Notes under the pieces: model-generated | Told to the model about the DNA's origin: nothing | What the model saw: only the letters and a program-made list of their open reading frames with translations | Database searches by the model: none | Shown here: positions 16,495-29,621 of the stretch, one piece after another | Position numbering within the stretch: position 1 is the stretch's first letter | Layout of the letters: the number at the start of each line of letters is the position of its first letter | Made by a program: the position numbers and the translations under genes | Source: Oscillospiraceae bacterium | Lineage (GTDB): Bacteria > Bacillota > Clostridia > Oscillospirales > CAG-382 | Reading direction: 5' to 3' | Assembly: GCA_015064895.1 (NCBI GenBank) | Contig: SVRI01000008.1 | Coordinates: forward strand, 11,126 to 75,125 | Length of the DNA: 64,000 nt

Positions 16495-17637
16495 TTAAAT
16501 AAATATGTCAATCTTATCAAGTATTTCCTCAATACCCTTAGCATCAACCACTCTCGGGTTTGTCGCCGTACACGCATCGGCAATGGCACTTTCGATAATG
16601 TGCTGTTTTGCCTTTTTATATTGGTCAATCGTAACGCCTGCTTCACCGAGGGTTGTGGGGATATTCAGCCAGCGCTGGTATTCCTTGATTTTGTGAATCA
16701 TGTTTCGAACACCGACATCGGGAGAATTGCCGGGATAACCAAGTCGTCTTGCCAAACCTTCGAGCTTGTCGGCTGTGGCGTTTGCGTTCTTTACACAGAA
16801 CTTGATATCAAGCTCTGTATTATATCTTAAAACATGAGGAAGAAGCATCGCATTTGCTCTGCCGTGGGGTATATGGAAATGTGCTCCGAGTGCATGGGCA
16901 ATGGAGTGGTTTACACCGAGACCTGCTTCGTTGAAGGCAATACCTGCAAGGCAGGAAGCTGTGTGCATCTTTTCTCTTGCTATCATATCGTTACCGTTTT
17001 TATATGCAGGCACGATATATTCCGCCCAGAGTTCAACCGCCTTTTCGGCAAGAGCATCGGAAAACTCGTTTGCATTCTTTGAAATATAAGCTTCAAGGGC
17101 ATGAGTAAGCACATCAAAGCCTGTATCAGCCGTAACTGTCGGAGGTACGCTTGCTGTCAGCTCACAGGAAAGAATTGCCATTTCGGGAAGCATTTCTTCG
17201 TCAACTAGCGGTATCTTTTTACCTGCCTGTCTGTCGGAAATCACCGCAAATTCGGTAACCTCCGAACCTGTTCCGCTGGTTGTGGGAACGGCAATAAGGC
17301 GGATATATTTTCCCGTATGCTTTCTCGCAACGTAAACAGTTCCCTTTGCCGCATCTATTGCCGAGCCGCCGCCGACTGCAACAACAAGGTCGATTTCATT
17401 TTCAATCAAAAACTTAAGACCGCTTGCTACCGTTTCAACAGGCGGGTCGGGAACGACATCCGAATAGATAGATACATTCTCGCAGGAAGTCAAAAGCTCT
17501 TTTATTCTGTTCGCAGTGCCGTTGTCTGTAAGAAACCTGTCGGTGAACACGACAACATTTTTGCCCTGTACGCTCTTAAGTGCTTCAAGGGCATTCTGTC
17601 CGAAAATAATATCTGTTTTAAGTTTGAATCTTTGCAT
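16495..17637 (-). CDS. iron-containing (group III) alcohol dehydrogenase (PduQ/FucO-like)
   Basis: 380 aa. GGGSAID motif and His-rich metal site (HALGAHFHIPHG). Last gene of the BMC-associated cluster. No N-terminal extension. Confidence 0.88.
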   Translation of the reverse strand: MQRFKLKTDIIFGQNALEALKSVQGKNVVVFTDRFLTDNGTANRIKELLTSCENVSIYSDVVPDPPVETVASGLKFLIENEIDLVVAVGGGSAIDAAKGTVYVARKHTGKYIRLIAVPTTSGTGSEVTEFAVISDRQAGKKIPLVDEEMLPEMAILSCELTASVPPTVTADTGFDVLTHALEAYISKNANEFSDALAEKAVELWAEYIVPAYKNGNDMIAREKMHTASCLAGIAFNEAGLGVNHSIAHALGAHFHIPHGRANAMLLPHVLRYNTELDIKFCVKNANATADKLEGLARRLGYPGNSPDVGVRNMIHKIKEYQRWLNIPTTLGEAGVTIDQYKKAKQHIIESAIADACTATNPRVVDAKGIEEILDKIDIFI

Positions 17638-17640
17638 TTA

Positions 17641-17782
17641 CTTCACCCCTTACTTTTCTTTCGCAGAAAAGTAAGCAAAAGAACTCGCATTCAGCACCGC
17701 CCTTTTGCAATATGAATGTTTATGTCAACTTCTCGATTGCAGTTTCATTTTGCCGCATATAAGGCACGCGGCAAAATGAGTG
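17641..17782. repeat. mosaic repeat, 5'-leader module (half element)
   Basis: Hairpin cttacttttct/agaaaagtaag + gcaaaagaactcgca + ...ttctcgat... + hairpin cattttgccgc/gcggcaaaatg. Homologous to 23541-23672, 25529-25670 and 63340-63480. Confidence 0.8.
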
Positions 17783-18541
17783 CTAATAATATAATTCTAC
17801 ATTGTTGGAAGCAAAATAGCTCTTCCATTCTTCGCTCGGTTCTTTATCTGTAACAACACAATCGACTTCGCCGATATTCGCAAGTCTTACAAAGCTTGTC
17901 TTATCAAACTTTGTGTTATCAACCGCAAGGAAAACCTTCTTTGCCGAACGCATAAACGCCTTCTTGATTGTTGCGTTATAGTCTCTTGTATCTGTAATGC
18001 CCTTTTCCATGTCAAGACCTTTACAGGAAATGACACAAAGGTCAACATTATATTCGTCAATAATCGACTCTACCTGTCTGCCTGCAAAGGAAAGGGAGCT
18101 TTGAACAAACTCGCCGCCTGTACAAATTACACGCCAGTCGCTGTTCTGAGGAAGCTCAAGGAGAACCTCAATAGAGTTTGTGAGAAGCGTGATATTATGT
18201 CTGTCGGCTATTTCCTTGACGGTAAAGAGAGCAGTTGTTGAAGCATCAAGAAGAATATAGTCGCCGTCACTGATATGTTCTGCGATTTTCTCGGCAATAT
18301 ACTTTTTGCCCTCAACATTTGTCTGCTTTCTGACAGTGAGAGGAAGCTCTGTATTCAAGTTTTCGTTCTTGACAGCACCGCCGTAGGTCTTCTTTGCAAG
18401 ACCTTCCTTTTCGAGTTTGTCAAGGTCACGTCTTATTGTTTCTTCCGTAACATCAAACTCTAAAGCCAAGTCGCTGACAATAACCTTTCCTTCTGCCATA
18501 AGACGCGAAAGGATAGTATTTTTTCTTTCGATTGGAAGCAA
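17783..18541 (-). CDS. DeoR-family transcriptional regulator
   Basis: 252 aa. N-terminal wHTH (RLMAEGKVIVSDLALEFDVTEETIRRDL) plus a sugar-phosphate sensor domain. Apparent TTG start behind AGGGGG. Confidence 0.88.
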   Translation of the reverse strand: MLPIERKNTILSRLMAEGKVIVSDLALEFDVTEETIRRDLDKLEKEGLAKKTYGGAVKNENLNTELPLTVRKQTNVEGKKYIAEKIAEHISDGDYILLDASTTALFTVKEIADRHNITLLTNSIEVLLELPQNSDWRVICTGGEFVQSSLSFAGRQVESIIDEYNVDLCVISCKGLDMEKGITDTRDYNATIKKAFMRSAKKVFLAVDNTKFDKTSFVRLANIGEVDCVVTDKEPSEEWKSYFASNNVELYY

Positions 18542-18621
18542 GGGATAACCCCCTATTCTCTATATTGTGATATGGGCGACCGCAAGGGCCGCCCGTTGTT
18601 TATTCATTCCGAATTCCGCAC

Positions 18622-19170
18622 TCACAGTATGCTATCCCAAATTGATGGGTCAGGATTGGGAATTACCGAGTAGTCGAGAAGAAGACCGTTATCTCCCACA
18701 ACCCTCTTTGCATTTTCAATCGCCGCAGTTACGGATGCAACAGTTCCTGTGAGAAGCATATAAGATTTTCCGCACATACCGCGTGCGATTCTAAGTTCGA
18801 TAAGCTTTACCTCTGCCGCCTTTGCCGCAGTATCTGCAGCAACTATGATTGAAGGGGCGGTGAATGTTTCAAGAACACCGAGAGCTTTTACACCCTCAAT
18901 ATTTGCTCCGCCATAGATTGCCTTGAAGATATCCTCATGGGGATTACCGAGAACAAAGGAATCTGTAAGCTGGTCAGGATAAAGTGCCTTTGCAGAATCA
19001 ACCGAGCTTCTTACTGCGGAAAGTTCGCCTGTAATAAGTACTATGTATTTACCGGGACAAACAGTTGATGCCTGAAGGATTTCGACATTAGAAGTCTTAA
19101 CCATGTTATCAGCCGCTGTCATACCTGTGGATACGGTTTTATATTCAACCATTCCGATTGCTTTACTCAT
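18622..19170 (-). CDS. tandem-BMC-domain shell protein (BMC-T, PduT-like)
   Basis: 182 aa with two BMC repeats. A Cys in STVCPGKY sits at the position of the PduT pore Fe-S ligand. Confidence 0.82.
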   Translation of the reverse strand: MSKAIGMVEYKTVSTGMTAADNMVKTSNVEILQASTVCPGKYIVLITGELSAVRSSVDSAKALYPDQLTDSFVLGNPHEDIFKAIYGGANIEGVKALGVLETFTAPSIIVAADTAAKAAEVKLIELRIARGMCGKSYMLLTGTVASVTAAIENAKRVVGDNGLLLDYSVIPNPDPSIWDSIL

Positions 19171-19181
19171 CTGTAATCACC

Positions 19182-20510
19182 TCACTTTGCATTTATTCTG
19201 ATGTAGGCATCGGTTACTTCTTCAACCTTGCCCGAGATTGATGCGTGAATACTTACTCCAAGTCCTTCGGGTGCATTTGCAATAACATCACCGACATTTA
19301 CCGAGTCGCCCACCTTGACACAAGCTACAGCAGGTGCGCCGATATGCTGGCTGAGTTTTATCTTCACGCTGTCGGCCTTTACGAGATTGTCGTCAAGGGG
19401 ACATTCCACGTCATATTTAACAAGTCCGAGGTGACGGACAAGCTTTGTAATGGGAACTGTTCTGAATTCTCGAAGCTTATGCACTTCTTTTGTTTCAATA
19501 TCCTTTGGAATCTGAACGCCTGCTTTTTTGAGCTTTCCCTTTGTCATGCCAAGTAAGGTTGTGGGAGAAAGTCCCTGGAAACAAGCATAATATTCACATA
19601 TACCGCAGGAGCAACAGAAGAATGAATCAATGTAAGGCTTTACATCCTTTGTAACGCCGCCTGTAACATTCATCATAAACTTCTGGGGGTCAATGGGATG
19701 ACCAAGAAGATTACGGGAGCACAGGTCTGTACACATCATACAGTTACAGCAGGCACTCATGGCACGCTTCATGCTGATGGTTACGGGTGTTGTTCTCTTT
19801 GTTATGATATACTGATTTTCATCCAGTACAAGGATTGCATTTGAAGTCTTGGTAACAACCTCACGCTTTGAGGAGATTGTACCTGTCATAGGTCCGCCCG
19901 CAAAATACACAGGGTTCTTTATTGTGGCACCGCCGCAAAGTTCAACCACTTCGCCGTAGGTCATACCAATCGGCACCTTGAGTGTTGAGGGGTTCTTTAC
20001 CTCGCCTGCAACGGTTATATACTTATATGTAACGCCCTTATTTTCCTTAATAGCATATGCCGCATTGAGCATAGTTTCGACATTATAAACAACGCATCCA
20101 ACGCTGATGGGAAGCTGTCCTGCGGGAACAACTCTACCCGTGGTTTCATAGATTGTAACCACTTCGTCGCCGGCAGGATAGATTTCGGGAAGAAGTCCTA
20201 TCGAAAAACCGTCCTTGCCTTCGATTGCTTCCTCTGCCGCCTCTATTGCATCCTTGTAATGGGGCTTTACAGCAATGATAACCCTGTCTGCACCGAGAAC
20301 ATTCTTGACAGTCTCAAGAGCAAAGACAATGTCTCTTGCATGATACTCAAGCACCTGTCTGTGAAGCTTTAAAAGGGGCTCACATTCGGCACAGTTGAGA
20401 ATTATTGTATCCGCTTTGTCGTTGAGTTTTGCGTATGAGGGAAAACCTGCACCGCCGGCACCAACGACACCGGCATTTTTAAGAATGTCGGAAAGTGCCT
20501 TTATATCCAT
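19182..20510 (-). CDS. PduS/RnfC-like flavo-iron-sulfur protein
   Basis: GAGGAGFP nucleotide/FMN motif at the N-terminus. Two Cys clusters (CCNCMMCTDLC, CCSCGICEYYAC). The C-terminal ~60 aa resembles the RnfC N-terminal barrel domain (HIGAPA...GD...HASISGKV). Confidence 0.78.
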   Translation of the reverse strand: MDIKALSDILKNAGVVGAGGAGFPSYAKLNDKADTIILNCAECEPLLKLHRQVLEYHARDIVFALETVKNVLGADRVIIAVKPHYKDAIEAAEEAIEGKDGFSIGLLPEIYPAGDEVVTIYETTGRVVPAGQLPISVGCVVYNVETMLNAAYAIKENKGVTYKYITVAGEVKNPSTLKVPIGMTYGEVVELCGGATIKNPVYFAGGPMTGTISSKREVVTKTSNAILVLDENQYIITKRTTPVTISMKRAMSACCNCMMCTDLCSRNLLGHPIDPQKFMMNVTGGVTKDVKPYIDSFFCCSCGICEYYACFQGLSPTTLLGMTKGKLKKAGVQIPKDIETKEVHKLREFRTVPITKLVRHLGLVKYDVECPLDDNLVKADSVKIKLSQHIGAPAVACVKVGDSVNVGDVIANAPEGLGVSIHASISGKVEEVTDAYIRINAK

Positions 20511-20791
20511 TATTCGTCACACTCCAGATTGCTTGCATCGTCAACGATACCTACAATTGCCGCATCTACGGGTGCGTTTTCGCATCCGCAACCGATTCTT
20601 GCAGCGCTTCCTTTTGCCACAAGTACAACTTCGCCTACACCTGCACCTACGTTATCGATAGCTACAAAGCTTTCGCATTCGCCCGATACCTTCATGCAAG
20701 CGAGAGGTTTAACAATAAGAAGCTTATGTCCAACTAAGTTTTCATTCTTGCGTGTGGAAACTATGCTTCCCGTTACTTTTCCTATTATCAT
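20510..20791 (-). CDS. BMC vertex pentamer protein (EutN/CcmL/PduN family)
   Basis: 93 aa. MIIGKVTGSIVSTRK start is typical of the family. Confidence 0.9.
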   Translation of the reverse strand: MIIGKVTGSIVSTRKNENLVGHKLLIVKPLACMKVSGECESFVAIDNVGAGVGEVVLVAKGSAARIGCGCENAPVDAAIVGIVDDASNLECDE

Positions 20792-20967: not shown

Positions 20968-21402
20968 TTACTTAAGAGAGGGAAGAATCTTTTCAACGTC
21001 AGTATGAGGTCTGGGAATAACGTGTGTAGCGATGATTTCGCCGAGCTTCTGAGCTGCTGCGAGACCTGCTTCAACTGCAGCCTTAACTGCACCAACGTCG
21101 CCTCTTACCATTACGGATACGAGACCGCTACCGATCTTTTCTGTGCCAACGAGTTCAACGTTTGCTGCCTTGAGCATAGCATCTGCTGCTTCGATTGCTG
21201 CAACGAGACCTCTTGTTTCAACCATACCAAGTGCCTGCTGTACCATAGTCTTAATCTCCTTTGTTTCGGATTTTTTTGTTGTTTTTTTAGTTTCTTCTGT
21301 CTTTACTTCTTCTACGGGCTTCTTTTCGATAACCTTTTCCACAACTTCGGGAGCAGGAGAAGCAATTACAGTCTTCTTAGCCGAAGATTTTCTTTCAGCC
21401 AT
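20968..21402 (-). CDS. BMC-H hexamer shell protein with a ~50-aa Lys/Glu/Thr-rich N-terminal extension
   Basis: The C-terminal 90 aa is almost identical in pattern to PduA/EutM ([20 protein letters not shown]...). The N-terminal low-complexity tail is [23 protein letters not shown]. Confidence 0.85.
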
Positions 21403-21438
21403 TGTCTTTTCCTCCGTTTAAGTCTTCTCTAGTTCCGA

Positions 21439-21714
21439 TTAGAACTTGGGAAGAATCTTTTCAACGTCTGCGTGGGGTCTGGGGATTACGTGAGTTGCGA
21501 TGATTTCGCCGAGTCTGGAAGCTGCTGCTGTACCGGATTCAACTGCTGCCTTAACTGCACCAACGTCGCCTCTTACCATTACAGATACGAGACCGCTACC
21601 GATCTTTTCTGTACCGATAAGTGTAACTTCTGCTGCCTTTACCATTGCATCAGCTGCTTCAACCGCTGCTGTGAGACCTCTGGTTTCGATCATACCAAGT
21701 GCTTCGTATGCCAT
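21439..21714 (-). CDS. BMC-H hexamer shell protein (PduA/EutM-like)
   Basis: 91 aa. [24 protein letters not shown]... Confidence 0.92.
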
Positions 21715-21767: not shown

Positions 21768-22997
21768 TTACTGATTAACAATCGCAATCTTGAGACCCTG
21801 CATTGAGAGGTTCATTTCAAGTGCTTCATTAATCTTTTCCAAGGGATACTTATGTGTGATAAGCTCTGCTAAAGGAATACCGATTGCCTTTGCTCTCTTT
21901 AAGAAGTCAAAGGTTGTTGCGTAGTCTCTGAGTGTGTATACCCAGGAACCTACGGTTGTGATTTCCTTTGCACAGATATCAAAGTGGGGGTTAATCTGAG
22001 CGTCGCCGCCGTTGATAAAGAAGCCGAGCTCGCAAAGACCGCCGCCGTTACGGATGAACTTGTAGATGTTTGCATGAGCTACAGGTGAGCCTGTGCACTG
22101 GAATGCAAAGTCTGCAAGGTAGCCGCCGAATGCGTTTTCAACGCCCTTGGCAAGTTCTTCAACACCGTTGTGATTCTTGAAGTTGACGGAAGCTGTTGCG
22201 CCCATCTTCTTTGCAAAGTCGAGTCTCATATCGTTACCGTCAACCGCAACGATGTTTTCGATACCCATGGTTCTGAGAATTGCAATACAGATAAGACCGA
22301 TAGGTCCGCAACCCTGAACAACTACTCTTGAATTGAATCTTAAAATACCTGTTGTCTTTGCTCTTTCAACTGCGTGAATGAGAACCGCACAGGGTTCGAT
22401 AAGAATTCTTGAGTCGAGGTCGAGGTCGCTTACGTTAAATACTGTAGATCCGCCCTTAACTACCATATAATCTGCGAACCAACCCTGAAGATGATTCTTT
22501 TCATCGTCGGGAAGAAGTCCGTAAACATCGGCACCGCCAACGTTCTGCTTATTGAGGTCGAACATTGTGATGTCGGGGTTATCCTTGAAAATCATACAGG
22601 TAACAACTTTATCACCAATGTTAAGAGGCTTACCTGCACTATCCTTCTTAACATTCTTACCCATGGCAACTATCTCGCCCGTGCCCTCGTGACCGAGTGC
22701 AACAGGGATAAGGCCGAAGGGGTCGCGCTTGAACTCATGTGCGTCTGTACCGCATACACCGCAACCTTCAACTTTAACGAGGATATCGTCATCGCCGAGC
22801 GCAGGCACAGGGTATTCGTTAAGATCAAAATGTTCAAGCTTTGTAAGCATTGCAACACGTGCAGTCTTGGGCACGCCGCCCGCTGTTTTCTTCTGTGAAG
22901 GAACCGCTTCAAGCGAAGGAGCTGACGCATTTCCTTCCTTCAGAGAAGAGAGCACCTGTCTGACAATGGCTTCAATATCATTTGCCTTTACGTCCAT
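21768..22997 (-). CDS. zinc-dependent medium-chain alcohol/polyol dehydrogenase with N-terminal encapsulation-peptide-like extension
   Basis: GCGVCGTDAHE and GHEGTGE zinc motifs. GCGPIGL Rossmann motif. The ~50-aa N-terminal extension holds the amphipathic helix DIEAIVRQVLSSL plus a linker. Confidence 0.85.
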   Translation of the reverse strand: MDVKANDIEAIVRQVLSSLKEGNASAPSLEAVPSQKKTAGGVPKTARVAMLTKLEHFDLNEYPVPALGDDDILVKVEGCGVCGTDAHEFKRDPFGLIPVALGHEGTGEIVAMGKNVKKDSAGKPLNIGDKVVTCMIFKDNPDITMFDLNKQNVGGADVYGLLPDDEKNHLQGWFADYMVVKGGSTVFNVSDLDLDSRILIEPCAVLIHAVERAKTTGILRFNSRVVVQGCGPIGLICIAILRTMGIENIVAVDGNDMRLDFAKKMGATASVNFKNHNGVEELAKGVENAFGGYLADFAFQCTGSPVAHANIYKFIRNGGGLCELGFFINGGDAQINPHFDICAKEITTVGSWVYTLRDYATTFDFLKRAKAIGIPLAELITHKYPLEKINEALEMNLSMQGLKIAIVNQ

Positions 22998-23011: not shown

Positions 23012-23527
23012 TTAATTTAAGCTTTCGAAGTAGGCTCTTCCGTACTCACCGAGCAGTGTATCCTGTTCGGCTGTGCCGCCGCTGACGCCTAAGCCTCCGA
23101 TTATTACACCGTCTTTGTTTGTGAGCGGCTCGCCGCCTCCGAAAATTACTATTTTGCCACCATTTGTAAACTGTATTCCGTAAAGTGAACCGCCGGGTGC
23201 TGCAAGAGTTGCAAGATTTTTGGTGGGCATCTTTAATGATACCACCGTAAATGCCTTGTTTACCGCTATATCATAGCTGGCAATAAAAGCATCATCCATA
23301 CATTCTACAGCTATGGGGTTTCCGCCTGCATCAGCAACAGCCGTTACCGCCTTGACTCCCATTTCGGATGCCTTCTTTTGTACAGCTTCGATTGTTTTCT
23401 TTGCCGCAGAAAGAGTCATCTTTGTCATGGAGTTTTTAACGGCGGCAGTTGTCTTTACGTCGGAGGATTCCTGACCCAGCACCTGTTTTACTATATCGCT
23501 TACAAGCTTTTCCATATCATGTGCCAT
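23012..23527 (-). CDS. DUF336 / GlcG-PduO-C-like (putative haem-binding) protein with N-terminal encapsulation-peptide-like helix
   Basis: Start set to MAHDMEKL (23527) behind GGAAGGAGG. MEKLVSDIVKQVLGQ helix, then the DUF336 core (...GGLGVSGGTAEQD...). Confidence 0.75.
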   Translation of the reverse strand: MAHDMEKLVSDIVKQVLGQESSDVKTTAAVKNSMTKMTLSAAKKTIEAVQKKASEMGVKAVTAVADAGGNPIAVECMDDAFIASYDIAVNKAFTVVSLKMPTKNLATLAAPGGSLYGIQFTNGGKIVIFGGGEPLTNKDGVIIGGLGVSGGTAEQDTLLGEYGRAYFESLN

Positions 23528-23693: not shown

Positions 23694-24506
23694 TTATTTA
23701 CCTAATTGAGCAAGTACGTTCTTTGTGATCTGAGCGATGATGTCATCTTCATTGGAATGACCGTGACTGCCGCAGTTACCGCTACAAGAACCGCCGCAAG
23801 AGTGACAGCTGGGCTTGCCTGCCTTGTTGTTGGGGCAGAGGTCTGCAGGATGCTTACCTGTCATACCGAACTGACGTCTGATTTCATAAAGTCTCTGAAC
23901 CTGTGCTTCGGAAAGGTGCTTAGGACCGCCGAGCATCTTAGACTGGTAGAGAAGCTGTGCATAGAATTCTACGGATTCCATCTTGTGATAAGCACTGAGA
24001 AGTGAATCGGAGAATGCAAGTGCACCGTGGTTTTCAAGAAGTACAGCATCGAAGTACTGGAGGTACTTGGAAACTGCATCGGGAATTTCTTCAGTAGAAG
24101 GTGTGCCGTATTCAGCGATCGGAACACAACCGAGTGCGATTACTGCTTCGGGCATAATCGGTTCTGTAAGGGGAATACCTGCAATAGCAAAGCTTGTTGC
24201 ATACATGGGGTGAGCATGTACAACAGACTTAACGTCGGGTCTTTCCTTATATACTCTCATATGCATCTTGATTTCGGAAGAAGGTCTGAATCCTTCGTAT
24301 GCCTGGATTACCTTACCTTCTGCGTCAACCTTACAGATGTATTCGGGTGTCATAAAGCCCTTGGATACGCCTGTAGGTGTGCAAAGAAATTCGTTGTCGT
24401 TGAGCTTAACGGAAATGTTACCGTCATTAGAAGCAACCATGCCTCTGTCGTAGATACGCTTACCAATGTCACAAATCTGTTTTTTGATTTCGTATTCTGT
24501 TGCCAT
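23694..24506 (-). CDS. class II aldolase (L-fuculose / L-rhamnulose-1-phosphate aldolase type) with Cys/His-rich linker and C-terminal encapsulation-peptide-like helix
   Basis: 270 aa. The class II aldolase/adducin fold pattern includes HAHP metal ligands. C-terminal tail CPNNKAGKPSCHSCGGSCSGNCGSHGHS + DDIIAQITKNVLAQLGK. Confidence 0.88.
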   Translation of the reverse strand: MATEYEIKKQICDIGKRIYDRGMVASNDGNISVKLNDNEFLCTPTGVSKGFMTPEYICKVDAEGKVIQAYEGFRPSSEIKMHMRVYKERPDVKSVVHAHPMYATSFAIAGIPLTEPIMPEAVIALGCVPIAEYGTPSTEEIPDAVSKYLQYFDAVLLENHGALAFSDSLLSAYHKMESVEFYAQLLYQSKMLGGPKHLSEAQVQRLYEIRRQFGMTGKHPADLCPNNKAGKPSCHSCGGSCSGNCGSHGHSNEDDIIAQITKNVLAQLGK

Positions 24507-24597: not shown

Positions 24598-24626
24598 ATT
24601 ATAGCACTTTGATATATTGTTGTCAA
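24598..24626 (-). promoter_or_regulatory. internal sigma-70-type promoter for the aldolase-to-pduT-like sub-operon
   Basis: Minus strand reads TTGACA (24626-24621), 17 nt, TATAAT (24603-24598). Confidence 0.55.
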
Positions 24627-24690
24627 TGGTTTTTGGCAAAAAAGTGTTGTTTTTTGAGGAATTTCTGTGGTTTTGTGTTGTTTTCGGGTT
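24627..24690 (-). promoter_or_regulatory. conserved upstream module shared with the GRE promoter (candidate regulator binding sites)
   Basis: ggtttttggcaaaaaagtgttgttttttgaggaatttctgtggttttgtgttg aligns with 29622-29680. The shared core is TTTTTGA-NNAATT-NN-TGTGGTTTTGTGTT. Confidence 0.45.
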
Positions 24691-24695
24691 GAAAA

Positions 24696-25160
24696 TCAGT
24701 TTCTGTTCACAGAATATTCATCTTCGGGTTCTTTTTCAAGGGCGAGATAATCTAATATATCTTGTATGCCGTCATCGTTATAGCTGCTGGTATAGAAGAT
24801 GCGTTTACAGCCGCAGAGCTTTAGCCATCCTCCCGCCCTTTCGGGGTTAGCATACTCGTGGTCGCACTTTGTGACAATTCCGATTACGGGTCTTGTACAC
24901 ATCCCGACAACATTAGGAGGAAACAAACAGAAAGGCTCTGTTGCCGAAATAAGTATTCCTATTACATCGGCTTCGCAGGAATAGACCGCAAGAGCACCGC
25001 CGAGCTGTTTTGCTTCGATATACTCACCGGGGGTATCGATAATGCTTTCGCTGTAGTCGATATACTGGGTTTTATGATAGTGGATTTCTTCTCTGCGAAG
25101 TGCCTGAATAAGTGTGGACTTACCGGCTTCGCTTCTACCCATAAGTATAAGCTTTCGCAT
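24696..25160 (-). CDS. EutP/PduV-family small GTPase
   Basis: 154 aa. P-loop GRSEAGKST and DTPGE. Confidence 0.85.
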   Translation of the reverse strand: MRKLILMGRSEAGKSTLIQALRREEIHYHKTQYIDYSESIIDTPGEYIEAKQLGGALAVYSCEADVIGILISATEPFCLFPPNVVGMCTRPVIGIVTKCDHEYANPERAGGWLKLCGCKRIFYTSSYNDDGIQDILDYLALEKEPEDEYSVNRN

Positions 25161-25528
25161 TATGTTCTTGTTACGGGGCAGACCTTAAAGCCAAGCACCT
25201 TTTCTGCATATTCGTTGACAGCATTAAGGGAAGCCTCAACCTCGGAAACGGTACCTGTCACAATAAGCGTGCCCGAGAATCTGTCGACAAATCCCAGGGT
25301 TGCTCCCGATTTCTTTATGGCAAGGTCGGCACCGATGATTGCGTATTCGGCAGGTGACATTGTCACAAGTCCGATTGCGCACTTATTCTGAGAGTAGTCC
25401 ACCGAAGGGTCAAGTCCCAGTTTTCTATAGAGAATCTCGTCGGGGTTTGCGATAATATGAGAAAGGGTTATCTGTTTACCGGGAACGAGTTCCTGTATAA
25501 TTCGTTGTTTGTTTTCGTAATTATCCAT
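25160..25528 (-). CDS. circularly permuted BMC shell protein (PduU/EutS-like)
   Basis: 122 aa. The N-terminal beta-barrel segment and permuted BMC fold pattern are as in PduU/EutS. Confidence 0.82.
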   Translation of the reverse strand: MDNYENKQRIIQELVPGKQITLSHIIANPDEILYRKLGLDPSVDYSQNKCAIGLVTMSPAEYAIIGADLAIKKSGATLGFVDRFSGTLIVTGTVSEVEASLNAVNEYAEKVLGFKVCPVTRT

Positions 25529-25770: not shown

Positions 25771-26568
25771 TTATCCGCCAATGATTACTCTGAGACCTGA
25801 GCATTCTGCGCTTTTTTTGAGTTTATCCATGTGTTCTTTACTCGGTGTCTGAACATCTCCCATAAGATATTCACGTCCGAGACCTATGTACTTATCATAT
25901 CCGAGTCTGTGGTAAGGAAGAAGATGAATTTCCTCAACACCTCTGAGAGATTTTGCAAACTTTGCAATGGAGAAGATTTCCTCTTCTGTATCATTAAAGG
26001 TTGGAATTACGGGAACACGCACCGTCAGGCTTTTTGCTATCTGTGAGAGCTTTTGTGCGTTTTCCAAGATAAGCTCGTTTGACACACCCGTAAATTCTTT
26101 ATGCTTCTTTGAATCGGTATGCTTTATATCCATCAAGATATAGTCAAGATTCTCGGCGAACTCTTTTACCGTTTCAAAGGGCAGGTTTGCCGTTGTTTCA
26201 ATGCAGGTATTTATTCCCATGTGGTGTGCACCTTTAAGGAGTGCTATTGCAAATTCCTTCTGGCACATCGCCTCACCGCCTGACAGCGTAAGTCCGCCGC
26301 CGCTTCTGCGGTAGTAGGGCATATCTTTTCCGACATCTTCGAGAACTTTCTTGACCGTGATATCATAACCGATAGTCTTTGTCTTTCCGTTCTGCACCAT
26401 TTCCTGGATTTTGTATTCCTGCGATTCGGGATTACAGCACCAGCGGCATCTGAGAATACAGCCTTTGAGGAATACTATTGTACGAATACCGGGGCCGTCG
26501 TGGGTAGAGAACTTCTGGATATCGAAGATTCTGCCTGTGGTATTCATAATTGATTCAAGTGTATCCAT
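25771..26568 (-). CDS. glycyl-radical enzyme activating enzyme (radical SAM, short PflA-like form)
   Basis: Start set to MDTLES (26568) behind AGAGGTGAG. CILRCRWC (CX3CX2C) cluster. GGGLTLSGGE SAM motif. No ferredoxin-like Cys insert is visible. Confidence 0.88.
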   Translation of the reverse strand: MDTLESIMNTTGRIFDIQKFSTHDGPGIRTIVFLKGCILRCRWCCNPESQEYKIQEMVQNGKTKTIGYDITVKKVLEDVGKDMPYYRRSGGGLTLSGGEAMCQKEFAIALLKGAHHMGINTCIETTANLPFETVKEFAENLDYILMDIKHTDSKKHKEFTGVSNELILENAQKLSQIAKSLTVRVPVIPTFNDTEEEIFSIAKFAKSLRGVEEIHLLPYHRLGYDKYIGLGREYLMGDVQTPSKEHMDKLKKSAECSGLRVIIGG

Positions 26569-26599
26569 CAGTCTCTCACCTCTTTTTGCCAAACTTATG

Positions 26600-27004
26600 T
26601 TTATTTCTTCGTACTTTTGTCCCGAAACAAAAGTACCAAAAATTCTCCGCTCAAAAGGAGAGATGACTCGGCGGCGAGTCGCCGCTGACAAACCGTCATT
26701 TTGACGGCATACCGAAAACCGTCAAAATGACAAATATTGCTGTCGGGCTTTCCCGACCCGCGGAGGCTTACCTCTCTCACTATTTGTGCGACACTTAATA
26801 TTATTTTTCTATCCAAGGCACCCCGTATATTTGCTGTCGGGCTTTCCCGACCCGTGGAGGCTTATCTCCTCTCAATGGGTGTGGTGCAAATTTGTATTGA
26901 GTTTGACCGCCCCGCTTTATGGCGATCAAACGGTGTTTGTTATGCGACACCTAAAAATTGCTTGTTGCCGAGATGTCCCGTGAGTTGCCCGCGGGGGCTC
27001 CCCG
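26600..27004. repeat. long composite mosaic repeat between the GRE and its activase
   Basis: Modules are gtacttttgt/acaaaagtac, ctcaaaaggagag, gtcattttgacgg/ccgtcaaaatgac, ctgtcgggctttcccgacccgNggaggctta (present twice, at 26737 and 26833) and gagtttgaccgc hairpin. Homologous to 38480-38585, 46722-46910 and 59530-59792 (reverse). Confidence 0.8.
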
Positions 27005-29527
27005 CTAGAATCTTATCTGCTCTGTACGATTAATAATGTCATCCTGAAGCGACTTTGAAAGTGTTGTAAAGAGTGCGCTGTAGCCTGCAACACGAACAAC
27101 GAGGCTTCTGTAATTTTCGGGATGCTTCTGTGCATCTCTGAGTGTTTCACGGCTAACAACATTGAACTGCATATGCATACCCTTCTGGTCAAAGTAACCG
27201 CGAAGGAGAGCAACAAAGCTTTCAAGTCCTGCTGCACCTTCAAGTGCCGAGGGATGGAACTTCATGTTGAAAAGTGTACCGTTGGAAGCGATACCGTGGT
27301 CAAGCTTTGCAACGGAGTTTGCAGAAGCTGTAGGGCCGTGTGTGTCGTAGCCGGCTGAGGGTGATACACCGTCGGCAACAGGCTTCTTTGCACATCTGCC
27401 GTCGGGTGTAGCTCCCGTCTGTGCACCGAGAGGTACATTTGCAGATACGGGATAAAGTCCTGCCTGGAACATACCGCCACGGGTGTTCTTATATGTTTCA
27501 AGAGGTCTTGTGTAGTAGTATGCCGCTTCTCTTGCAAGAGCATCTACATCATTGATGTCGTTACCGAACTTATCAAGAGCGAGAATGTCTTCTCTTATCT
27601 TGTGATATTCTTCGTTAACAACAAGACCTTCAGCTTTTATCTTATTATATATATCTGTAATCTGATCCTGTGTCACATTCTTGCCCTGTGCACGAAGTGC
27701 CTTTGCAGTTTCATTTGCCGCAAGAAGTGCCTTTTCGTCGTCGATTTCGAGAATGCCGTAGTTGTTGTCAAGGGCATCCTTGATTTGACGGAGTGTGTAC
27801 TTCTTCTGTTCGTATACGAGGGTTCTTATGGAATAAAGCGAGTCGGCAACATTTGCAATACCGAAGCCCTGAGGACCTGTGAAGTTATAAACTGCACCGC
27901 CCTGTTCGGGTGTCTTTCCTCTTGCTATACAGTCATCAACCATACTTGCAAGGTAAGGAAGGGGTGCTCTTTCGGCATGGGCAAGGTCAATTGCATTATT
28001 GGAATTAACCATGAGAGAAATCATGTAATCCATCTGCTTCTGATATGCATTCTTAAAGTCGTCAAACGACTTGAAGGTATCGATATCGCCTGTTGCAGGA
28101 CCTATCTGTACGCCGTTATCCTTACCGTTTGAGAATACAAGCTCAAGAGGACGGCACATATTGAAGAACGCCGCATCGTGCCAGCCCCATGTTTTACCGG
28201 GACACTGAGGTTCAACACATCCGATGATATTATAGTTTCTTGCATCTCTGAGGGATACTCCTCTTGACATGAGAGCGGGAATGATAACTTCATCATTATA
28301 GTAAGCAGGAAGACCGACACCTGTTCTTGTCACGGTTGCCGCCTTGATAAGGAAATCATGGGGTGAACCGTTCCAAACCCTTACAGAGAGTGAGGGTGCA
28401 GGAAGATTTGTATGTAATGTTGCCTCAAGGCACATATATGAAAGCTCGTTTGTTGCATCGAGACCGTCTTCATTCTGTCCGCCTGCGATAAGGTTCTGGA
28501 ACATGCTGTAGCCTGCAAAGCCTTCGGCACTTGCGGCGTCTCTGCACTTAGACAGGTCATTGAGCTTAATCCATACGCAGTCAATAAGTTCCTGTGCTTC
28601 TTCAAGAGTAAGTGTGCCGTTTTCGATATCCTTCTTGAAGTAAGGATACATATACTGGTCAAAACGTCCGGGAGAAATGGAGTGACCGCTGGACTCTGTC
28701 TGCAGAAGCATCTGAACAAACCAGAAGCTCTGGCATGCTTCGTGGAATGTTGTCGCACCGTTTTCGGGAACTCTGGAGCAGTTATACGCAATAATTGCAA
28801 GCTCCTTCTTTCTGACGGGGTCAGATTCCTTTTCCATCATCTCAAGGGCAAGCTTTGCATATCTCTTTGCATAGTAGATAGCTGCTTCACAGCTTATTTC
28901 AACGGCTTCAAGGAATGCAGACTTTGTGTTGTAGTCTTCATCACCGAAGTTCATCTTTGCCTTTTCTGCTCTTACTCTTTCCAAGATTCCCTTATAACCG
29001 ATTCTGAGAACTTCGCCGTATTTTACGGTTACATGTCCTACACCGTTATAGTAATAGTTACCGGGAGTGAAGATATTATGCTCCATTGCAAGAAGTGTTT
29101 CGGGAGCCATATATGAAGATGCAAGCTCGCTTGTTGTCTTACCGCCCCAGTACTTATACACTTCATGGAGTGTTCTCTTTGTTTCCTCGGAGATATAGAA
29201 GGGGTCTGCACTTCTTGTTTCAACAGTATCAAATTCATCCTCAAGCCATGAGAAAGAAAATTCCGGGAACACCTGACAGCTTCTGGGCTGTTTTGTGGCA
29301 GCACCTACTACAAGCTCGTCGGGACGGATTGTAATCGGAATATACTCAAGGATATTCTTAAACGCCTTTGCACGGCGAAGCACCATGGGCTCGCCTTCGG
29401 TTGACATATAAGACTGCGTAAGAAGCACGGCTCTGTCTGCTTCAATCTGAGGCTTAGATGCAAAAAGATGCTCCTTTAATCTCTCAATTCTATCTGATTT
29501 TCTGATGGATTTTGCCATATCTGTCAT
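27005..29527 (-). CDS. glycyl radical enzyme, diol-dehydratase (eliminase) class; most like B12-independent 1,2-propanediol dehydratase
   Basis: 840 aa. Glycyl loop VVRVAGYSALF. The catalytic loop IIGCVEPQ has a single Cys plus Glu, not the PFL Cys-Cys pair. GAGGAGG RBS. Confidence 0.85.
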   Translation of the reverse strand: MTDMAKSIRKSDRIERLKEHLFASKPQIEADRAVLLTQSYMSTEGEPMVLRRAKAFKNILEYIPITIRPDELVVGAATKQPRSCQVFPEFSFSWLEDEFDTVETRSADPFYISEETKRTLHEVYKYWGGKTTSELASSYMAPETLLAMEHNIFTPGNYYYNGVGHVTVKYGEVLRIGYKGILERVRAEKAKMNFGDEDYNTKSAFLEAVEISCEAAIYYAKRYAKLALEMMEKESDPVRKKELAIIAYNCSRVPENGATTFHEACQSFWFVQMLLQTESSGHSISPGRFDQYMYPYFKKDIENGTLTLEEAQELIDCVWIKLNDLSKCRDAASAEGFAGYSMFQNLIAGGQNEDGLDATNELSYMCLEATLHTNLPAPSLSVRVWNGSPHDFLIKAATVTRTGVGLPAYYNDEVIIPALMSRGVSLRDARNYNIIGCVEPQCPGKTWGWHDAAFFNMCRPLELVFSNGKDNGVQIGPATGDIDTFKSFDDFKNAYQKQMDYMISLMVNSNNAIDLAHAERAPLPYLASMVDDCIARGKTPEQGGAVYNFTGPQGFGIANVADSLYSIRTLVYEQKKYTLRQIKDALDNNYGILEIDDEKALLAANETAKALRAQGKNVTQDQITDIYNKIKAEGLVVNEEYHKIREDILALDKFGNDINDVDALAREAAYYYTRPLETYKNTRGGMFQAGLYPVSANVPLGAQTGATPDGRCAKKPVADGVSPSAGYDTHGPTASANSVAKLDHGIASNGTLFNMKFHPSALEGAAGLESFVALLRGYFDQKGMHMQFNVVSRETLRDAQKHPENYRSLVVRVAGYSALFTTLSKSLQDDIINRTEQIRF

Positions 29528-29592
29528 GGTCTTTTCCTCCTCTGAAAGGAATCAATATATAGATAGTGATACTTCTACAATTATACATACTC

Positions 29593-29621
29593 ATTATATA
29601 ACAGGGAATGTTGCTTGTCAA
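29593..29621 (-). promoter_or_regulatory. sigma-70-type promoter for the GRE operon
   Basis: Minus strand reads TTGACA (29621-29616), 17 nt, TATAAT (29598-29593), about 65 nt upstream of the GRE ATG. Confidence 0.6.

What the first reader, a model, noticed from the sequence alone, without database searches (positions are those of the whole stretch)
16495..29621. GRE microcompartment locus of the fucose/rhamnose type with no aldehyde dehydrogenase or phosphotransacylase core
Seen in the sequence: 14 co-directional minus-strand genes make up the locus.
- A diol-dehydratase-class GRE (GCVEP Cys/Glu loop, RVAGYS glycyl loop) and its activase.
- A PduU/EutS-like shell protein and an EutP/PduV GTPase.
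- A class II aldolase, a DUF336 protein and a Zn-dependent alcohol dehydrogenase (ADH).
- Two BMC-H proteins, a BMC-P protein, a PduS/RnfC-like protein and a PduT-like BMC-T protein.
- A DeoR regulator and an Fe-ADH.

Every sizeable ORF in the 13 kb is accounted for. None is an acylating aldehyde dehydrogenase (PduP/EutE type), PduL/Pta or an acyl kinase. The flanking genes (hydF, an HTH-membrane gene, a zinc-ribbon gene, an acyl-CoA ligase) are not either.

Established knowledge: catabolic metabolosomes, including the aldolase-containing GRM5 loci of Clostridium phytofermentans and Roseburia inulinivorans, normally encode signature enzyme + AldDH + ADH + PTAC. That set recycles NAD+/NADH and CoA inside the shell.

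Inference: this organelle may run only the reductive route, deoxyhexulose-1-P -> lactaldehyde -> 1,2-propanediol -> propanal -> 1-propanol. It would then be a pure aldehyde-containment and electron-sink compartment that consumes NADH without internal regeneration. Alternatively, the missing core sits in a satellite locus.
Basis: partly seen in the sequence, partly recalled or inferred. Interest (0 to 1): 0.75.

Follow-up and report, generated by a model that had tools for sequence, protein, structure and literature searches.

The report
Fucose microcompartment without its oxidising core
This gut Clostridia gene cluster builds a protein-shelled compartment for the propanediol branch of fucose/rhamnose breakdown, but it and a whole clade of related species lack the two enzymes that normally oxidise the toxic aldehyde, so it probably makes only propanol.

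Summary
Window 16495-29527 (minus strand) holds 14 intact genes: a propanediol-dehydratase-type glycyl radical enzyme (GRE) and its activase, PduU/EutS, EutP/PduV, a class II aldolase, DUF336, a Zn-ADH, two BMC-H, EutN, PduS, PduT, DeoR and an Fe-ADH. No Aldedh (PF00171), PduL/PTAC (PF06130) or acetate kinase is present anywhere in the 64 kb, by Pfam or tblastn.

It is a GRM5-type locus: the Zn-ADH, DUF336, DeoR and PduS/T are standard GRM5 content. The same 14-gene architecture recurs in at least 10 species-representative genomes, all uncultured gut Clostridia. These loci form one clade (bootstrap 100/100). All genes are under purifying selection (dN/dS 0.00-0.18). Relatives outside the clade carry AldDH and PduL with encapsulation-peptide-like ends; one nearby subgroup has them exactly between DeoR and Fe-ADH. 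A single clean loss is the simplest reading.

The reductive-only route (lactaldehyde to propanediol to propanal to propanol) is the best-supported explanation. It is not proven, because I could not search whole genomes of the clade for a satellite AldDH/PduL. No held paper describes an AldDH-less GRM5. Verdict: a real, conserved new variant of a known kind, of moderate to high interest.

The parts
27005..29527 (-). Glycyl radical enzyme, 1,2-propanediol dehydratase type (840 aa), with a ~58-aa internal insert (about residues 592-650; insert absent from glycerol dehydratase, proposed in the literature to act as an internal encapsulation peptide)
   Evidence: Pfam PFL-like 829 bits plus Gly_radical. 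It aligns end to end with R. inulinivorans diol dehydratase 5I2A (1270 bits), against 1005 bits in two pieces for glycerol dehydratase 1R8W. The FAGYSMFQNL and GLYPVSANVPLGA stretches read as in 5I2A, not as in 1R8W. It is below the cut-offs of the HpfG, HypD and CutC equivalogs.
25771..26568 (-). GRE-activating radical-SAM enzyme (265 aa from the ATG used by gene callers; the ORF extends to 26691). No ferredoxin-like insertion.
   Evidence: Pfam Radical_SAM plus Fer4_12 only. NCBIfam TIGR02494 scores 289 bits against a cut-off of 174. The 265-aa call appears on identical contigs. Ferlez 2019 states that only GRM5 activases lack the ~70-aa ferredoxin insertion.
25160..25528 (-). Permuted BMC-H shell protein, PduU/EutS type (122 aa)
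   Evidence: Pfam BMC 48 bits. The best NCBIfam match is EutS, below its cut-off.
24696..25160 (-). EutP/PduV small GTPase (154 aa)
   Evidence: Pfam PduV-EutP 159 bits. NCBIfam TIGR02528 scores 139.1 against a cut-off of 138.35.
23694..24506 (-). Class II aldolase (fuculose/rhamnulose-1-phosphate aldolase type, 270 aa), with a Cys/His-rich linker and a C-terminal amphipathic helix (DIIAQITKNVLAQLGK) that looks like an encapsulation peptide
   Evidence: Pfam Aldolase_II 172 bits over residues 10-186. The best solved relatives are L-fuculose-phosphate aldolases. The C-terminal tail is conserved in all locus types.
23012..23527 (-). DUF336 / HbpS-like (PduO C-terminal-like) protein (171 aa from the called start), with an N-terminal encapsulation-peptide-like helix (MEKLVSDIVKQVL)
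   Evidence: Pfam HbpS-like 116 bits. The 171-aa gene call is, and the N-terminal helix is conserved across loci. It is listed as a GRM5 ancillary gene in Axen 2014.
21768..22997 (-). Zn-dependent MDR alcohol dehydrogenase (409 aa) with a ~55-aa N-terminal extension carrying an encapsulation-peptide-like helix (DIEAIVRQVLSSL). This is the GRM5 'lactaldehyde reductase' / propanol dehydrogenase.
   Evidence: Pfam ADH_N plus ADH_zinc_N, with the domain starting at residue 68. Ferlez 2019 assigns PF00107+PF08240 as the GRM5 lactaldehyde reductase. Petit 2013 called the orthologue a propanol dehydrogenase. The extension is conserved.
21439..21714 (-). BMC-H shell protein (91 aa)
   Evidence: Pfam BMC 103 bits. 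It is 100% identical in several clade members.
20968..21402 (-). BMC-H shell protein with a ~55-aa Lys/Glu-rich N-terminal extension (144 aa)
   Evidence: Pfam BMC 106 bits over residues 57-132. The full 144 aa is called on identical contigs.
20510..20791 (-). BMC-P pentamer protein EutN/CcmL (93 aa)
   Evidence: Pfam EutN_CcmL 104 bits.
19182..20510 (-). PduS-like NADH/FMN/Fe-S oxidoreductase (442 aa)
   Evidence: Pfam Complex1_51K, SLBB, Fer4_17 and RnfC_N. A CxxCxxCxxxC motif is conserved.
18622..19170 (-). PduT-like tandem-domain BMC-T shell protein (182 aa) with the pore cysteine Cys38
   Evidence: Pfam BMC x2. Cys38 sits in STVCPGKY and is conserved in 12 of 13 clade members.
17783..18541 (-). 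DeoR-family transcription regulator (252 aa ORF; 238 aa as called)
   Evidence: Pfam HTH_DeoR plus DeoRC.
16495..17637 (-). Fe-dependent alcohol dehydrogenase (380 aa), with no terminal extension. It is the likely propanal reductase. In one nearby subgroup of relatives AldDH and PduL sit between DeoR and this gene.
   Evidence: Pfam Fe-ADH plus ADH_Fe_C spans residues 8-375. It is closest to the ADH domain of AdhE (3ZDR, 291 bits), ahead of FucO (161 bits). The gene orders are, and the termini.
29593..29674 (-). Promoter P1 for GRE-activase-PduU-EutP. It has a perfect TTGACA-17-TATAAT (29621-29593), preceded by the phased repeat AAAACCACA-N10-AAAAAACCACA, a likely operator.
   Evidence: The hexamer match is 12/12. 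The repeats are shown (family D4). The composite motif occurs only at P1 and P2 of loci of this clade, among the fetched loci and the window.
24598..24684 (-). Internal promoter P2 in front of the aldolase, with the same architecture (TTGACA-17-TATAAT at 24626-24598 plus the same phased repeats)
   Evidence: The promoter is conserved upstream of the aldolase in all clade members and in 9 further metagenome contigs.
16360..16391 (-). Intrinsic terminator closing the locus after the Fe-ADH (14-bp stem followed by a T run)

Best explanation
The locus encodes a derived GRM5 microcompartment that has lost its oxidative, ATP-yielding branch and runs the deoxyhexose C3 branch reductively.

Proposed pathway:
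- Fuculose- or rhamnulose-1-phosphate, made by genes elsewhere in the genome, is cleaved by the encapsulated class II aldolase to DHAP and L-lactaldehyde.
- The encapsulated Zn-ADH reduces lactaldehyde to 1,2-propanediol.
- The GRE dehydrates propanediol to propanal.
- Propanal is reduced to 1-propanol by the Fe-ADH and/or the Zn-ADH.
- No propionyl-CoA or propionyl-phosphate is made in the compartment.

The compartment thus confines two aldehydes and acts as a four-electron sink per deoxyhexose. That exactly balances DHAP -> acetate + CO2 (fucose -> acetate + CO2 + propanol; 2 ATP net). This is the same ATP yield as the canonical propionate + ethanol solution.

NADH must enter the lumen or be regenerated there. 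The retained PduS/PduT pair is the obvious candidate.

What is shown: gene content, absence of AldDH/PduL/AckA in 64 kb, clade-wide conservation, purifying selection, a PD-type GRE, encapsulation-peptide-like ends on the aldolase, Zn-ADH and DUF336, and two co-regulated promoters.

What is inferred: the substrates, propanol as sole C3 product, the location of the Fe-ADH, the NADH supply, and absence of the core from the rest of the genome.
For: 1. All 14 genes are present, and no Aldedh, PTAC or acetate kinase is found in the window by Pfam or tblastn.
2. The identical gene order, with different flanking genes, occurs in NCBI and ENA assemblies and in 10 GTDB species representatives, with up to 14 counting truncated contigs. 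One member's Zn-ADH is recorded in 106 blocks of the assembly collection.
3. These loci form one clade in a concatenated aldolase+ZnADH+PduS+PduT tree, with bootstrap 100/100.
4. The tree's sister group includes loci ordered DeoR-AldDH-PduL-FeADH, against DeoR-FeADH here. The ORFs in question were verified as Aldedh and PTAC. No AldDH, PduL or AckA hit (tblastn, E<=1e-3) lies in any fetched clade-A locus, including the DeoR-FeADH junction, or in the window.
5. dN/dS is 0.00-0.18 for every gene in within-clade comparisons, including the shell genes, the GRE and the Fe-ADH.
6. AldDH and PduL in the other locus types carry N-terminal amphipathic extensions, so they are lumen enzymes there. The aldolase, Zn-ADH and DUF336 keep theirs here.
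7. The GRE is PD-type over its full length.
8. The Fe-ADH is most like the aldehyde-reducing domain of AdhE.
9. The shell is streamlined to 2 BMC-H, against 5 in most of the nearest AldDH-containing relatives. The basal clade member still has 4, which fits stepwise simplification after the loss.
10. PduT Cys38 and the PduS Fe-S motif are conserved.
11. The clade-specific operator/promoter module was found only at the two promoters of this locus type. This holds in the window, in all fetched loci and in a metagenome scan.
Against: 1. I could not search whole genomes of the clade. An AldDH/PduL satellite, or a second BMC locus (EUT/PDU) supplying them, is not excluded.
2. [quoted passage not shown]
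3. The upstream pathway genes (isomerase, kinase, transporter) are also not next to the locus in this clade. Pathway genes are therefore scattered in these genomes.
4. The Fe-ADH has no recognisable encapsulation peptide.
5. A lumen with only NADH-consuming steps contradicts the usual private-cofactor-pool logic of metabolosomes.
6. PduS/PduT are present in all GRM5 loci, so they are not specific evidence for a new role.
7. The sister relation to the DeoR-AldDH-PduL-FeADH group has only 48/100 bootstrap support.
8. All clade members are uncultured MAGs or metagenome contigs, so no physiology is available.
Confidence: 0.5

Rival explanations
1. The pathway is the canonical complete GRM5 pathway. 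AldDH and PduL (and a kinase) were relocated, not lost. They are encoded at a satellite locus, or borrowed from a second microcompartment locus in the same genome, and are targeted to this shell.
For: Satellite loci are common for BMCs, and an AldDh-on-satellite type (ACI) is catalogued. EUT2B loci co-occur with GRM5/GRM5like loci in 5-15% of cases. The fucose/rhamnose isomerase, kinase and transporter genes are also absent from the neighbourhood in this clade, so the pathway is already split over the genome.
Against: No AldDH or PduL lies in the 64-kb window or in the up-to-10-kb flanks of any clade member. The clade-specific operator/promoter was found nowhere except this locus type in the window, the fetched loci and the scanned metagenome collection. 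That scan was exact-match and the collection is incomplete, so this evidence is weak. Moving exactly the two genes out of an operon, with simultaneous loss of 2-3 BMC-H paralogues, is less parsimonious than a deletion.
Confidence: 0.3
2. The shell encloses only aldolase, Zn-ADH and GRE. Propanal (or propanediol) leaves the compartment and is handled in the cytosol by the peptide-less Fe-ADH and/or a housekeeping AdhE or aldehyde dehydrogenase. The organelle would be a lactaldehyde/radical-enzyme container rather than a propanal trap.
For: The Fe-ADH has no N- or C-terminal extension in this clade or in its relatives. It sits after the regulator gene, behind a hairpin-containing 145-nt gap.
Against: Releasing propanal defeats the best-established role of PDU/GRM shells. 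From my own recollection of the literature, Salmonella PduQ is encapsulated without a canonical peptide. The Zn-ADH with a clear peptide was itself first annotated as a propanol dehydrogenase, so it could reduce propanal inside.
Confidence: 0.12
3. The GRE or the aldolase acts on a different substrate (for example another diol, a sulfonated diol, or a 5-deoxypentulose phosphate), so the missing core reflects a different chemistry.
For: GRE eliminases are hard to assign from sequence (review text). The aldolase reaches no NCBIfam equivalog cut-off, and its top hit there is a 3-oxo-tetronate-4-phosphate decarboxylase model.
Against: The GRE scores 1270 bits against the characterised R. inulinivorans enzyme, with a full-length alignment and PD-type residues in the stretches checked. 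It is far below the HpfG, HypD and CutC cut-offs. Aldolase and Zn-ADH are 78-91% identical to those of AldDH-containing GRM5 loci, which argues for an unchanged upstream chemistry.
Confidence: 0.05
4. The locus is a decaying remnant of a GRM5 operon and makes no functional organelle.
For: It lacks core enzymes. One clade member (L016) has also lost the GRE, the activase and PduU.
Against: All 14 reading frames are intact in many species that differ by up to ~28% in GRE sequence. dN/dS is 0.00-0.18 for every gene. Two consensus promoters and the operator are conserved.
Confidence: 0.03

Closest known systems
GRM5 fucose/rhamnose microcompartment (Clostridium phytofermentans Cphy_1174-1187; Roseburia inulinivorans)
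   Same: PD-type GRE with the internal insert. Short activase without the ferredoxin insertion. PduU-type shell protein. Class II aldolase with a C-terminal tail. Zn-ADH with an N-terminal peptide. DUF336, EutN, the PduS/PduT pair and a DeoR regulator.
   Different: No AldDH (Cphy_1178 equivalent) and no PduL (Cphy_1183 equivalent). Only two BMC-H genes. An Fe-ADH is appended after DeoR and an EutP/PduV GTPase is present. In my locus typing the C. phytofermentans-like order (type D) has AldDH between DUF336 and the Zn-ADH, and PduL before EutN.
Uncultured Oscillospiraceae/Acutalibacteraceae GRM5 loci ordered ...PduT-DeoR-(AckA)-AldDH-PduL-(FeADH) (for example L026, L027, L066, L072, L085)
   Same: Same gene order from the GRE to DeoR, and the same Fe-ADH family at the end in a subgroup. 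They are the nearest branch in the concatenated tree.
   Different: They keep AldDH and PduL with N-terminal encapsulation-peptide-like helices, often an acetate/propionate kinase, and usually five BMC-H genes. They lack the clade-specific AAAACMACA-N10-AAAAAACMACA promoter composite.
PVM-like loci (aldolase-signature metabolosomes of Firmicutes)
   Same: Class II aldolase, and shell and core proteins closest to GRM5. Several of the fetched relatives lack a GRE within 10 kb and look like this type.
   Different: PVM-like loci have AldDH and PTAC but no GRE. The present locus is the reverse: GRE present, AldDH and PTAC absent.
PDU microcompartment, reductive branch (PduQ)
   Same: Propanal -> 1-propanol by an Fe-ADH, with the shell thought to confine propanal (established knowledge; Pdu equivalents are listed).
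   Different: In PDU the reductive branch exists to recycle NAD+ for PduP. Here there is no PduP to serve, and the dehydratase is a GRE rather than a B12 enzyme.
Catalogue classes for incomplete cores: BUF (no AldDh) and MIC (incomplete core)
   Same: By the catalogue's own rule a BMC locus lacking an AldDh would fall outside the metabolosome core definition.
   Different: BUF and MIC types have no known aldehyde-generating signature enzyme. This locus has a well-understood one, so the missing core is interpretable.

Membership tests
Bacterial microcompartment locus | Genes for BMC-domain (PF00936) hexamer/trimer proteins and a PF03319 pentamer protein clustered with enzymes | tested here: met
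   Four PF00936 proteins (two BMC-H, one permuted BMC-H, one tandem BMC-T) and one PF03319 protein.
GRM (glycyl-radical-enzyme microcompartment) | GRE (PF01228+PF02901) and cognate activase (PF04055) in the locus | tested here: met
   The definition comes from Ferlez 2019.
GRM5 | Class II aldolase (PF00596) in the locus | tested here: met
   Aldolase_II 172 bits. The nearest solved relatives are fuculose-phosphate aldolases.
GRM5 | Zn-dependent MDR dehydrogenase (PF00107+PF08240), the 'lactaldehyde reductase', with an N-terminal encapsulation peptide | tested here: met
   The conserved N-terminal amphipathic helix is. The catalogue's own peptide HMM was not run.
GRM5 | PduS and PduT present, no GrpU | tested here: met
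   The permuted hexamer is closest to EutS, not GrpU. The 57/57 statement is.
GRM5 | Activase lacks the ~70-aa ferredoxin-like insertion | tested here: met
   265 aa, with Radical_SAM plus Fer4_12 only and no PF00037.
GRM5 | GRE of the 1,2-propanediol dehydratase type with the ~60-aa internal insertion | tested here: met
   Full-length alignment to 5I2A including residues 592-650, which are absent from 1R8W. Activity was not tested.
GRM5 / canonical metabolosome core | Acylating aldehyde dehydrogenase (PF00171) with an encapsulation peptide | tested here: not met
   None in the locus or in the 64-kb window by Pfam or tblastn. The rest of the genome could not be tested.
GRM5 / canonical metabolosome core | Phosphotransacylase PduL (PF06130) | tested here: not met
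   None in the locus or window. It is present in types B, C and D of related loci.
Canonical metabolosome core | Alcohol dehydrogenase for cofactor recycling | tested here: met
   Two are present, a Zn-ADH and an Fe-ADH. Without AldDH their role cannot be 'recycling'.
Glycyl radical 1,2-propanediol dehydratase | Glycyl loop RVxG, Cys/Glu loop GCVEP, and PD-type rather than glycerol-dehydratase-type residues | tested here: met
   RVAGYS and GCVEPQ are present. FAGYSMFQNL and GLYPVSANVPLGA match 5I2A and differ from 1R8W (FGGYPMYQNL, GLYPSSINVYFGS). Which of these residues contact substrate rests on my memory of the structural papers.
Glycyl radical 1,2-propanediol dehydratase | Dehydration of 1,2-propanediol to propanal | not testable with these tools
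   Needs an enzyme assay.

The most novel reading that the evidence does not exclude
A widespread clade of gut Clostridia runs a metabolosome with no aldehyde-oxidising core at all. It would be a purely reductive, electron-sink organelle in which two NADH-dependent reductions occur inside the shell. Lumenal NAD+ would be re-reduced by PduS with electrons passed through the [4Fe-4S] pore of PduT from cytosolic ferredoxin. This would be the first natural case where the PduS/PduT pair, rather than an AldDH/ADH couple, carries the compartment's redox balance.
Probability: 0.2. Interest if true: 0.85.

Novelty: new variant of a known kind. Interest (0 to 1): 0.6.

Why it matters
The aldehyde dehydrogenase / phosphotransacylase / alcohol dehydrogenase triad is treated as the defining common core of catabolic microcompartments. 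It also underlies the 'private cofactor pool' model.

This locus is a conserved, selected lineage that keeps the shell, the aldehyde-generating radical enzyme and two reductases but has dropped the oxidising half. If the genes are truly absent from these genomes, three things follow:
- The core is dispensable.
- NADH or electrons must cross the shell at pathway rates.
- The long-unexplained PduS/PduT pair of B12-independent compartments gets a directly testable job.

It also predicts that these abundant, uncultured gut and rumen Clostridia turn fucose, rhamnose or propanediol into propanol rather than propionate. That matters for short-chain fatty acid budgets.

The compact 14-gene operon, with a five-gene shell set, is an attractive minimal system for engineering.

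Tried and rejected
1. Looked for the missing core in the window: Pfam on the large non-nested ORFs of at least 110 aa and tblastn with AldDH, PduL and AckA from relatives. Nothing was found.

2. Tried to find co-regulated satellite operons through the promoter/operator module.
- The strict window-specific pattern gave 0 hits in metagenome contigs. It did not even find near-identical contigs, so that collection does not hold them.
- The clade-wide pattern gave 13 hits: 9 are the aldolase promoter of the same locus type. The other 4 carry no gene of this locus type and look like chance matches (three in DNA of 27-29% G+C, not examined further), one of them inside an A/C-rich low-complexity reading frame.
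- No other regulon member emerged. This is weak negative evidence only.

3. Tried to name the organism. Cluster look-up gave no names. A literature search on Feifania and fucose was useless.

4. Tried to learn whether the catalogue already lists an AldDH-less GRM5.
- The GRM5 and GRM5like paragraphs of Supplementary Data 2 are truncated in the held text.
- The locus tables are not held.
- Zarzycki 2015 is not held.
- The PVMlike paragraph implies that GRM5like has AldDH and PTAC.

5. Looked for fucose/rhamnose genes beside clade members. I found ABC ATPases, MatE, a deacetylase, an aminotransferase and similar genes, but none of the pathway.

6. Rfam found only tRNAs in the window and no riboswitch at the locus.

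7. Rejected 'assembly artefact': the same junctions occur in independent assemblies from JGI, ENA and NCBI.

8. Rejected 'pseudogenised locus': dN/dS.

9. A whole-genome check for satellites was not possible.

Full report
**What is in the window.**
Between 16495 and 29527 there are 14 co-directional minus-strand reading frames. In transcription order they are:
- GRE (PFL-like + Gly_radical)
- radical-SAM activase
- a permuted BMC-H (PduU/EutS type)
- EutP/PduV GTPase
- class II aldolase
- DUF336/HbpS-like
- Zn-dependent MDR alcohol dehydrogenase
- BMC-H (91 aa)
- BMC-H with a Lys/Glu-rich N-terminal extension (144 aa)
- EutN
- a PduS-like flavo-Fe-S protein
- a PduT-like tandem BMC-T
- a DeoR regulator
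- an Fe-dependent alcohol dehydrogenase

Gene calls on identical public contigs use shorter starts for the activase (265 aa), DUF336 (171 aa) and DeoR (238 aa).

**Locus boundaries and promoters.**
- A terminator upstream of the GRE (29724-29697) and a strong terminator after the Fe-ADH (16391-16360) frame the locus.
- Two perfect TTGACA-17-TATAAT promoters sit in front of the GRE (29621-29593) and in front of the aldolase (24626-24598).
- Each is preceded by the same phased A-rich repeat, AAAACMACA-N10-AAAAAACMACA.
- The locus therefore looks like two co-regulated units, presumably under the DeoR protein.

**The missing core.**
- A Pfam scan of the large non-nested ORFs of at least 110 aa in the 64 kb found no Aldedh, no PTAC/PduL and no acetate kinase.
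- The flanks are hydF, an HTH_3 protein, an AMP-binding enzyme, a sigma/anti-sigma pair, a two-component system, glycoside hydrolases and housekeeping genes.
- tblastn with AldDH, PduL and AckA proteins taken from related loci gave no hit in the window at E<=1e-3, so there is no pseudogene remnant.

**What kind of locus it is.**
The GRE:
- It aligns end to end with the characterised Roseburia inulinivorans 1,2-propanediol dehydratase (5I2A, 1270 bits).
- The alignment includes the ~58-residue insert (592-650) that glycerol dehydratase lacks. The literature treats that insert as an internal encapsulation peptide.
- Two stretches that differ between the two solved enzymes read as in the propanediol enzyme.
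- It falls far below the NCBIfam cut-offs for HpfG, HypD and CutC.

The rest of the GRM5 complement:
- The activase is the short form without a ferredoxin insertion, a trait reported only for GRM5.
- The Zn-ADH (PF00107+PF08240) is the enzyme that reviews assign as the GRM5 lactaldehyde reductase. Petit et al. first called the orthologue a propanol dehydrogenase.
- DUF336, DeoR and PduS are listed as GRM5 ancillary genes, and PduS/PduT occur in 57/57 GRM5 loci.

So apart from the Fe-ADH and the absent core, the content is ordinary GRM5. Published descriptions of GRM5, GRM5like and PVMlike all include AldDH and PTAC.

**Relatives.**
- The window is a JGI metagenome contig, and 21 contigs carry the identical GRE.
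- The Zn-ADH has thousands of close homologues.
- Looking up three of them at 97, 85 and 83% identity returned the same 14-gene order in different genomic surroundings. One of these proteins is recorded in 106 blocks of the assembly collection.
- A scan of one genome per GTDB species found 475 Zn-ADH relatives, of which the best 80 loci were kept.

Four architectures emerged:
- **Type A**: ...PduT-DeoR-FeADH, with no AldDH or PduL. This is the window's type.
- **Type B**: ...PduT-AldDH-BMC-PduL-DeoR.
- **Type C**: ...PduT-DeoR-(AckA)-AldDH-PduL-(FeADH).
- **Type D**: the C. phytofermentans-like order, Aldolase-DUF336-AldDH-ZnADH-BMC-H x4-PduL-EutN-PduS-PduT-DeoR. It includes the one cultured organism in the set, Mobilisporobacter senegalensis.

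Ten GTDB species representatives show the type A junction. Four more truncated contigs belong with them by tree position, promoter motif or near-identity. All are MAGs from ruminant, other herbivore or human guts, and one is labelled Feifaniaceae.

**Evolution.**
- In a neighbour-joining tree of concatenated aldolase, Zn-ADH, PduS and PduT (59 loci, 1283 columns), all type A loci form one clade. Bootstrap support is 100/100.
- PduS and PduT recover the clade on their own. The very conserved aldolase and Zn-ADH do not.
- The sister group in the tree is a set of type C loci that includes those ordered DeoR-AldDH-PduL-FeADH. Support for that pairing is only 48/100.
- The basal type A member (L063) still has four BMC-H genes. 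The rest have two, against five in most type C loci.
- The simplest history is one deletion of AldDH-PduL between DeoR and the Fe-ADH, followed by shell simplification.
- Within the clade, dN/dS is 0.00-0.18 for all 14 genes wherever dS was not saturated, so the reduced locus has been maintained by selection.
- One member (L016) has additionally lost the GRE, the activase and PduU.

**Targeting signals.**
- AldDH and PduL of types B, C and D begin with amphipathic helices typical of encapsulation peptides, for example SKAEIEQIVKQVISGL and INVSAIAEAVLKALE.
- In all types the Zn-ADH (DIEAIVRQVLSSL) and DUF336 (MEKLVSDIVKQVL) have N-terminal helices. The aldolase has a C-terminal one (DIIAQITKNVLAQLGK) behind a Cys/His-rich linker.
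- The Fe-ADH has no extension in type A or type C.
- It is closest to the alcohol dehydrogenase domain of AdhE (291 bits), ahead of FucO (161 bits).
- PduT keeps the pore cysteine Cys38, and PduS keeps its Fe-S motif.

**How it most likely works.**
Shown: the enzyme set, its conservation, and the lack of an oxidising branch in the locus.

Inferred pathway:
- Fuculose- or rhamnulose-1-phosphate is split to DHAP and lactaldehyde.
- Lactaldehyde is reduced to 1,2-propanediol.
- Propanediol is dehydrated to propanal.
- Propanal is reduced to 1-propanol.

In canonical GRM5 the lactaldehyde reductase and AldDH balance NADH inside the shell, and PduL recycles CoA. Here both lumenal redox steps consume NADH.

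Stoichiometrically, fucose -> acetate + CO2 + 1-propanol is redox-balanced: 26 available electrons on each side. It yields 2 ATP. That is the same as the propionate + ethanol solution open to a canonical organism that cannot dispose of H2. Losing the branch therefore need not cost energy; it moves the electron sink into the compartment.

NADH must then either cross the shell or be regenerated by PduS with electrons delivered through PduT. This is speculation, and since PduS/PduT are universal in GRM5 their presence is not specific support.

**What remains open.**
- The decisive alternative is that AldDH and PduL are encoded elsewhere in these genomes.
- I could not test it.
- Indirect checks were negative but weak. 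There is no AldDH or PduL in the up-to-10-kb flanks of any clade member.
- The clade-specific promoter composite occurs only at the two promoters of this locus type in the window and the fetched loci.
- A metagenome scan with it returned nine more copies of the aldolase promoter and four hits that carry no gene of this locus type and look like chance matches, only one of which I examined in detail.
- Against the loss reading, the catalogue documents a BMC type whose AldDh is always on a satellite. The upstream sugar genes are also not linked to the locus in this clade.

**Novelty.**
- None of the held papers that mention GRM5 describes a GRM5 without AldDH and PTAC.
- The relevant catalogue paragraphs are truncated in the held copy, and Zarzycki 2015 is not held. 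I therefore cannot exclude that such loci were silently included among the 202 'GRM5' loci.
- I rate it a new variant of a known kind. It is real, recurrent and selected, and it conflicts with the standard metabolosome core model.
- It is a loss variant whose key implication still depends on a whole-genome check.

Noticed in passing
window 17651-17779, 23547-23670, 25535-25663, 26696-26730: A composite intergenic hairpin element sits in three to four intergenic gaps of the operon and nowhere else in the 64 kb. It consists of TCATTTTGCCG-N13-CGGCAAAATGA plus TACTTTTCTTTCGCAGAAAAGTA. The copy between the activase and PduU is absent from a strain with the identical GRE (L003, where the gap is 7 nt). 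Close relatives L006 and L012 have a copy between BMC-H and EutN instead. It could be a small mobile (MITE/REP-like) element or an RNA-processing/stabilising hairpin.
   Followed up: partly
window 26737-26774 and 26831-26868 (partial copy 20948-20967): A second short repeat with a GTCGGGAAAGCCCGAC hairpin occurs twice in the unusually long (~435 nt) gap between the GRE and the activase. A partial copy lies just upstream of the 144-aa BMC-H gene.
   Followed up: no
window 29695-29723 and 30253-30281: The identical 29-nt terminator hairpin (AAACCGCACCC...GGGTGCGGTTT) flanks both sides of a 148-aa zinc-ribbon/membrane ORF (29731-30177). That ORF is missing at this position in relatives L006 and L012, where the AMP-binding gene abuts the GRE promoter. 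This looks like a small inserted gene cassette.
   Followed up: no
L016 (UMGS1387, URVJ01000017.1) 4263-8000: A member of the AldDH-less clade that also lacks the GRE, the activase, PduU and one BMC-H. A 1010-aa BcrAD_BadFG/DUF2229 activase-like gene lies upstream instead. It keeps EutP, the aldolase, DUF336, the Zn-ADH, a reduced shell set (one BMC-H, EutN, PduT), PduS, DeoR and the Fe-ADH.
   Followed up: partly
L020, L030, L032, L060, L088 (type C) and L046, L050 (type D): Close relatives with aldolase, Zn-ADH, AldDH, PduL and shell genes but no GRE or activase detected in the fetched stretch upstream of PduU or the aldolase. These are PVM-like architectures nested among GRM5 loci, which suggests repeated gain or loss of the GRE module. 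L046 (Mobilisporobacter senegalensis) has a 591-aa ORF of L-fucose isomerase length just upstream of the aldolase; I did not scan that ORF.
   Followed up: no
window 53004-55676 and 50572-51825: An 890-aa protein with BspA-type leucine-rich repeats and a weak delta-endotoxin C-terminal domain hit lies next to a 417-aa RHS-repeat protein. It may be a surface or toxin-like module unrelated to the finding.
   Followed up: no
window 3247-10739: A glycan-utilisation cluster: two GH130 mannoside phosphorylases, a GH43, a phosphoglucomutase/phosphomannomutase, an AraC regulator and an MFS transporter. It points to mannan/mannoside use, not deoxyhexose use, near the microcompartment locus.
   Followed up: no
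window 43039-43617 and 52127-52811: Two tRNA gene clusters, of five and four tRNAs, on the minus strand.
   Followed up: no
Metagenome-contig collection: An exact pattern present in the window and in identical JGI contigs (for example L005) returned no hit. The searchable metagenome collection therefore does not contain these contigs, and negative results from it are weaker than they look.
   Followed up: yes
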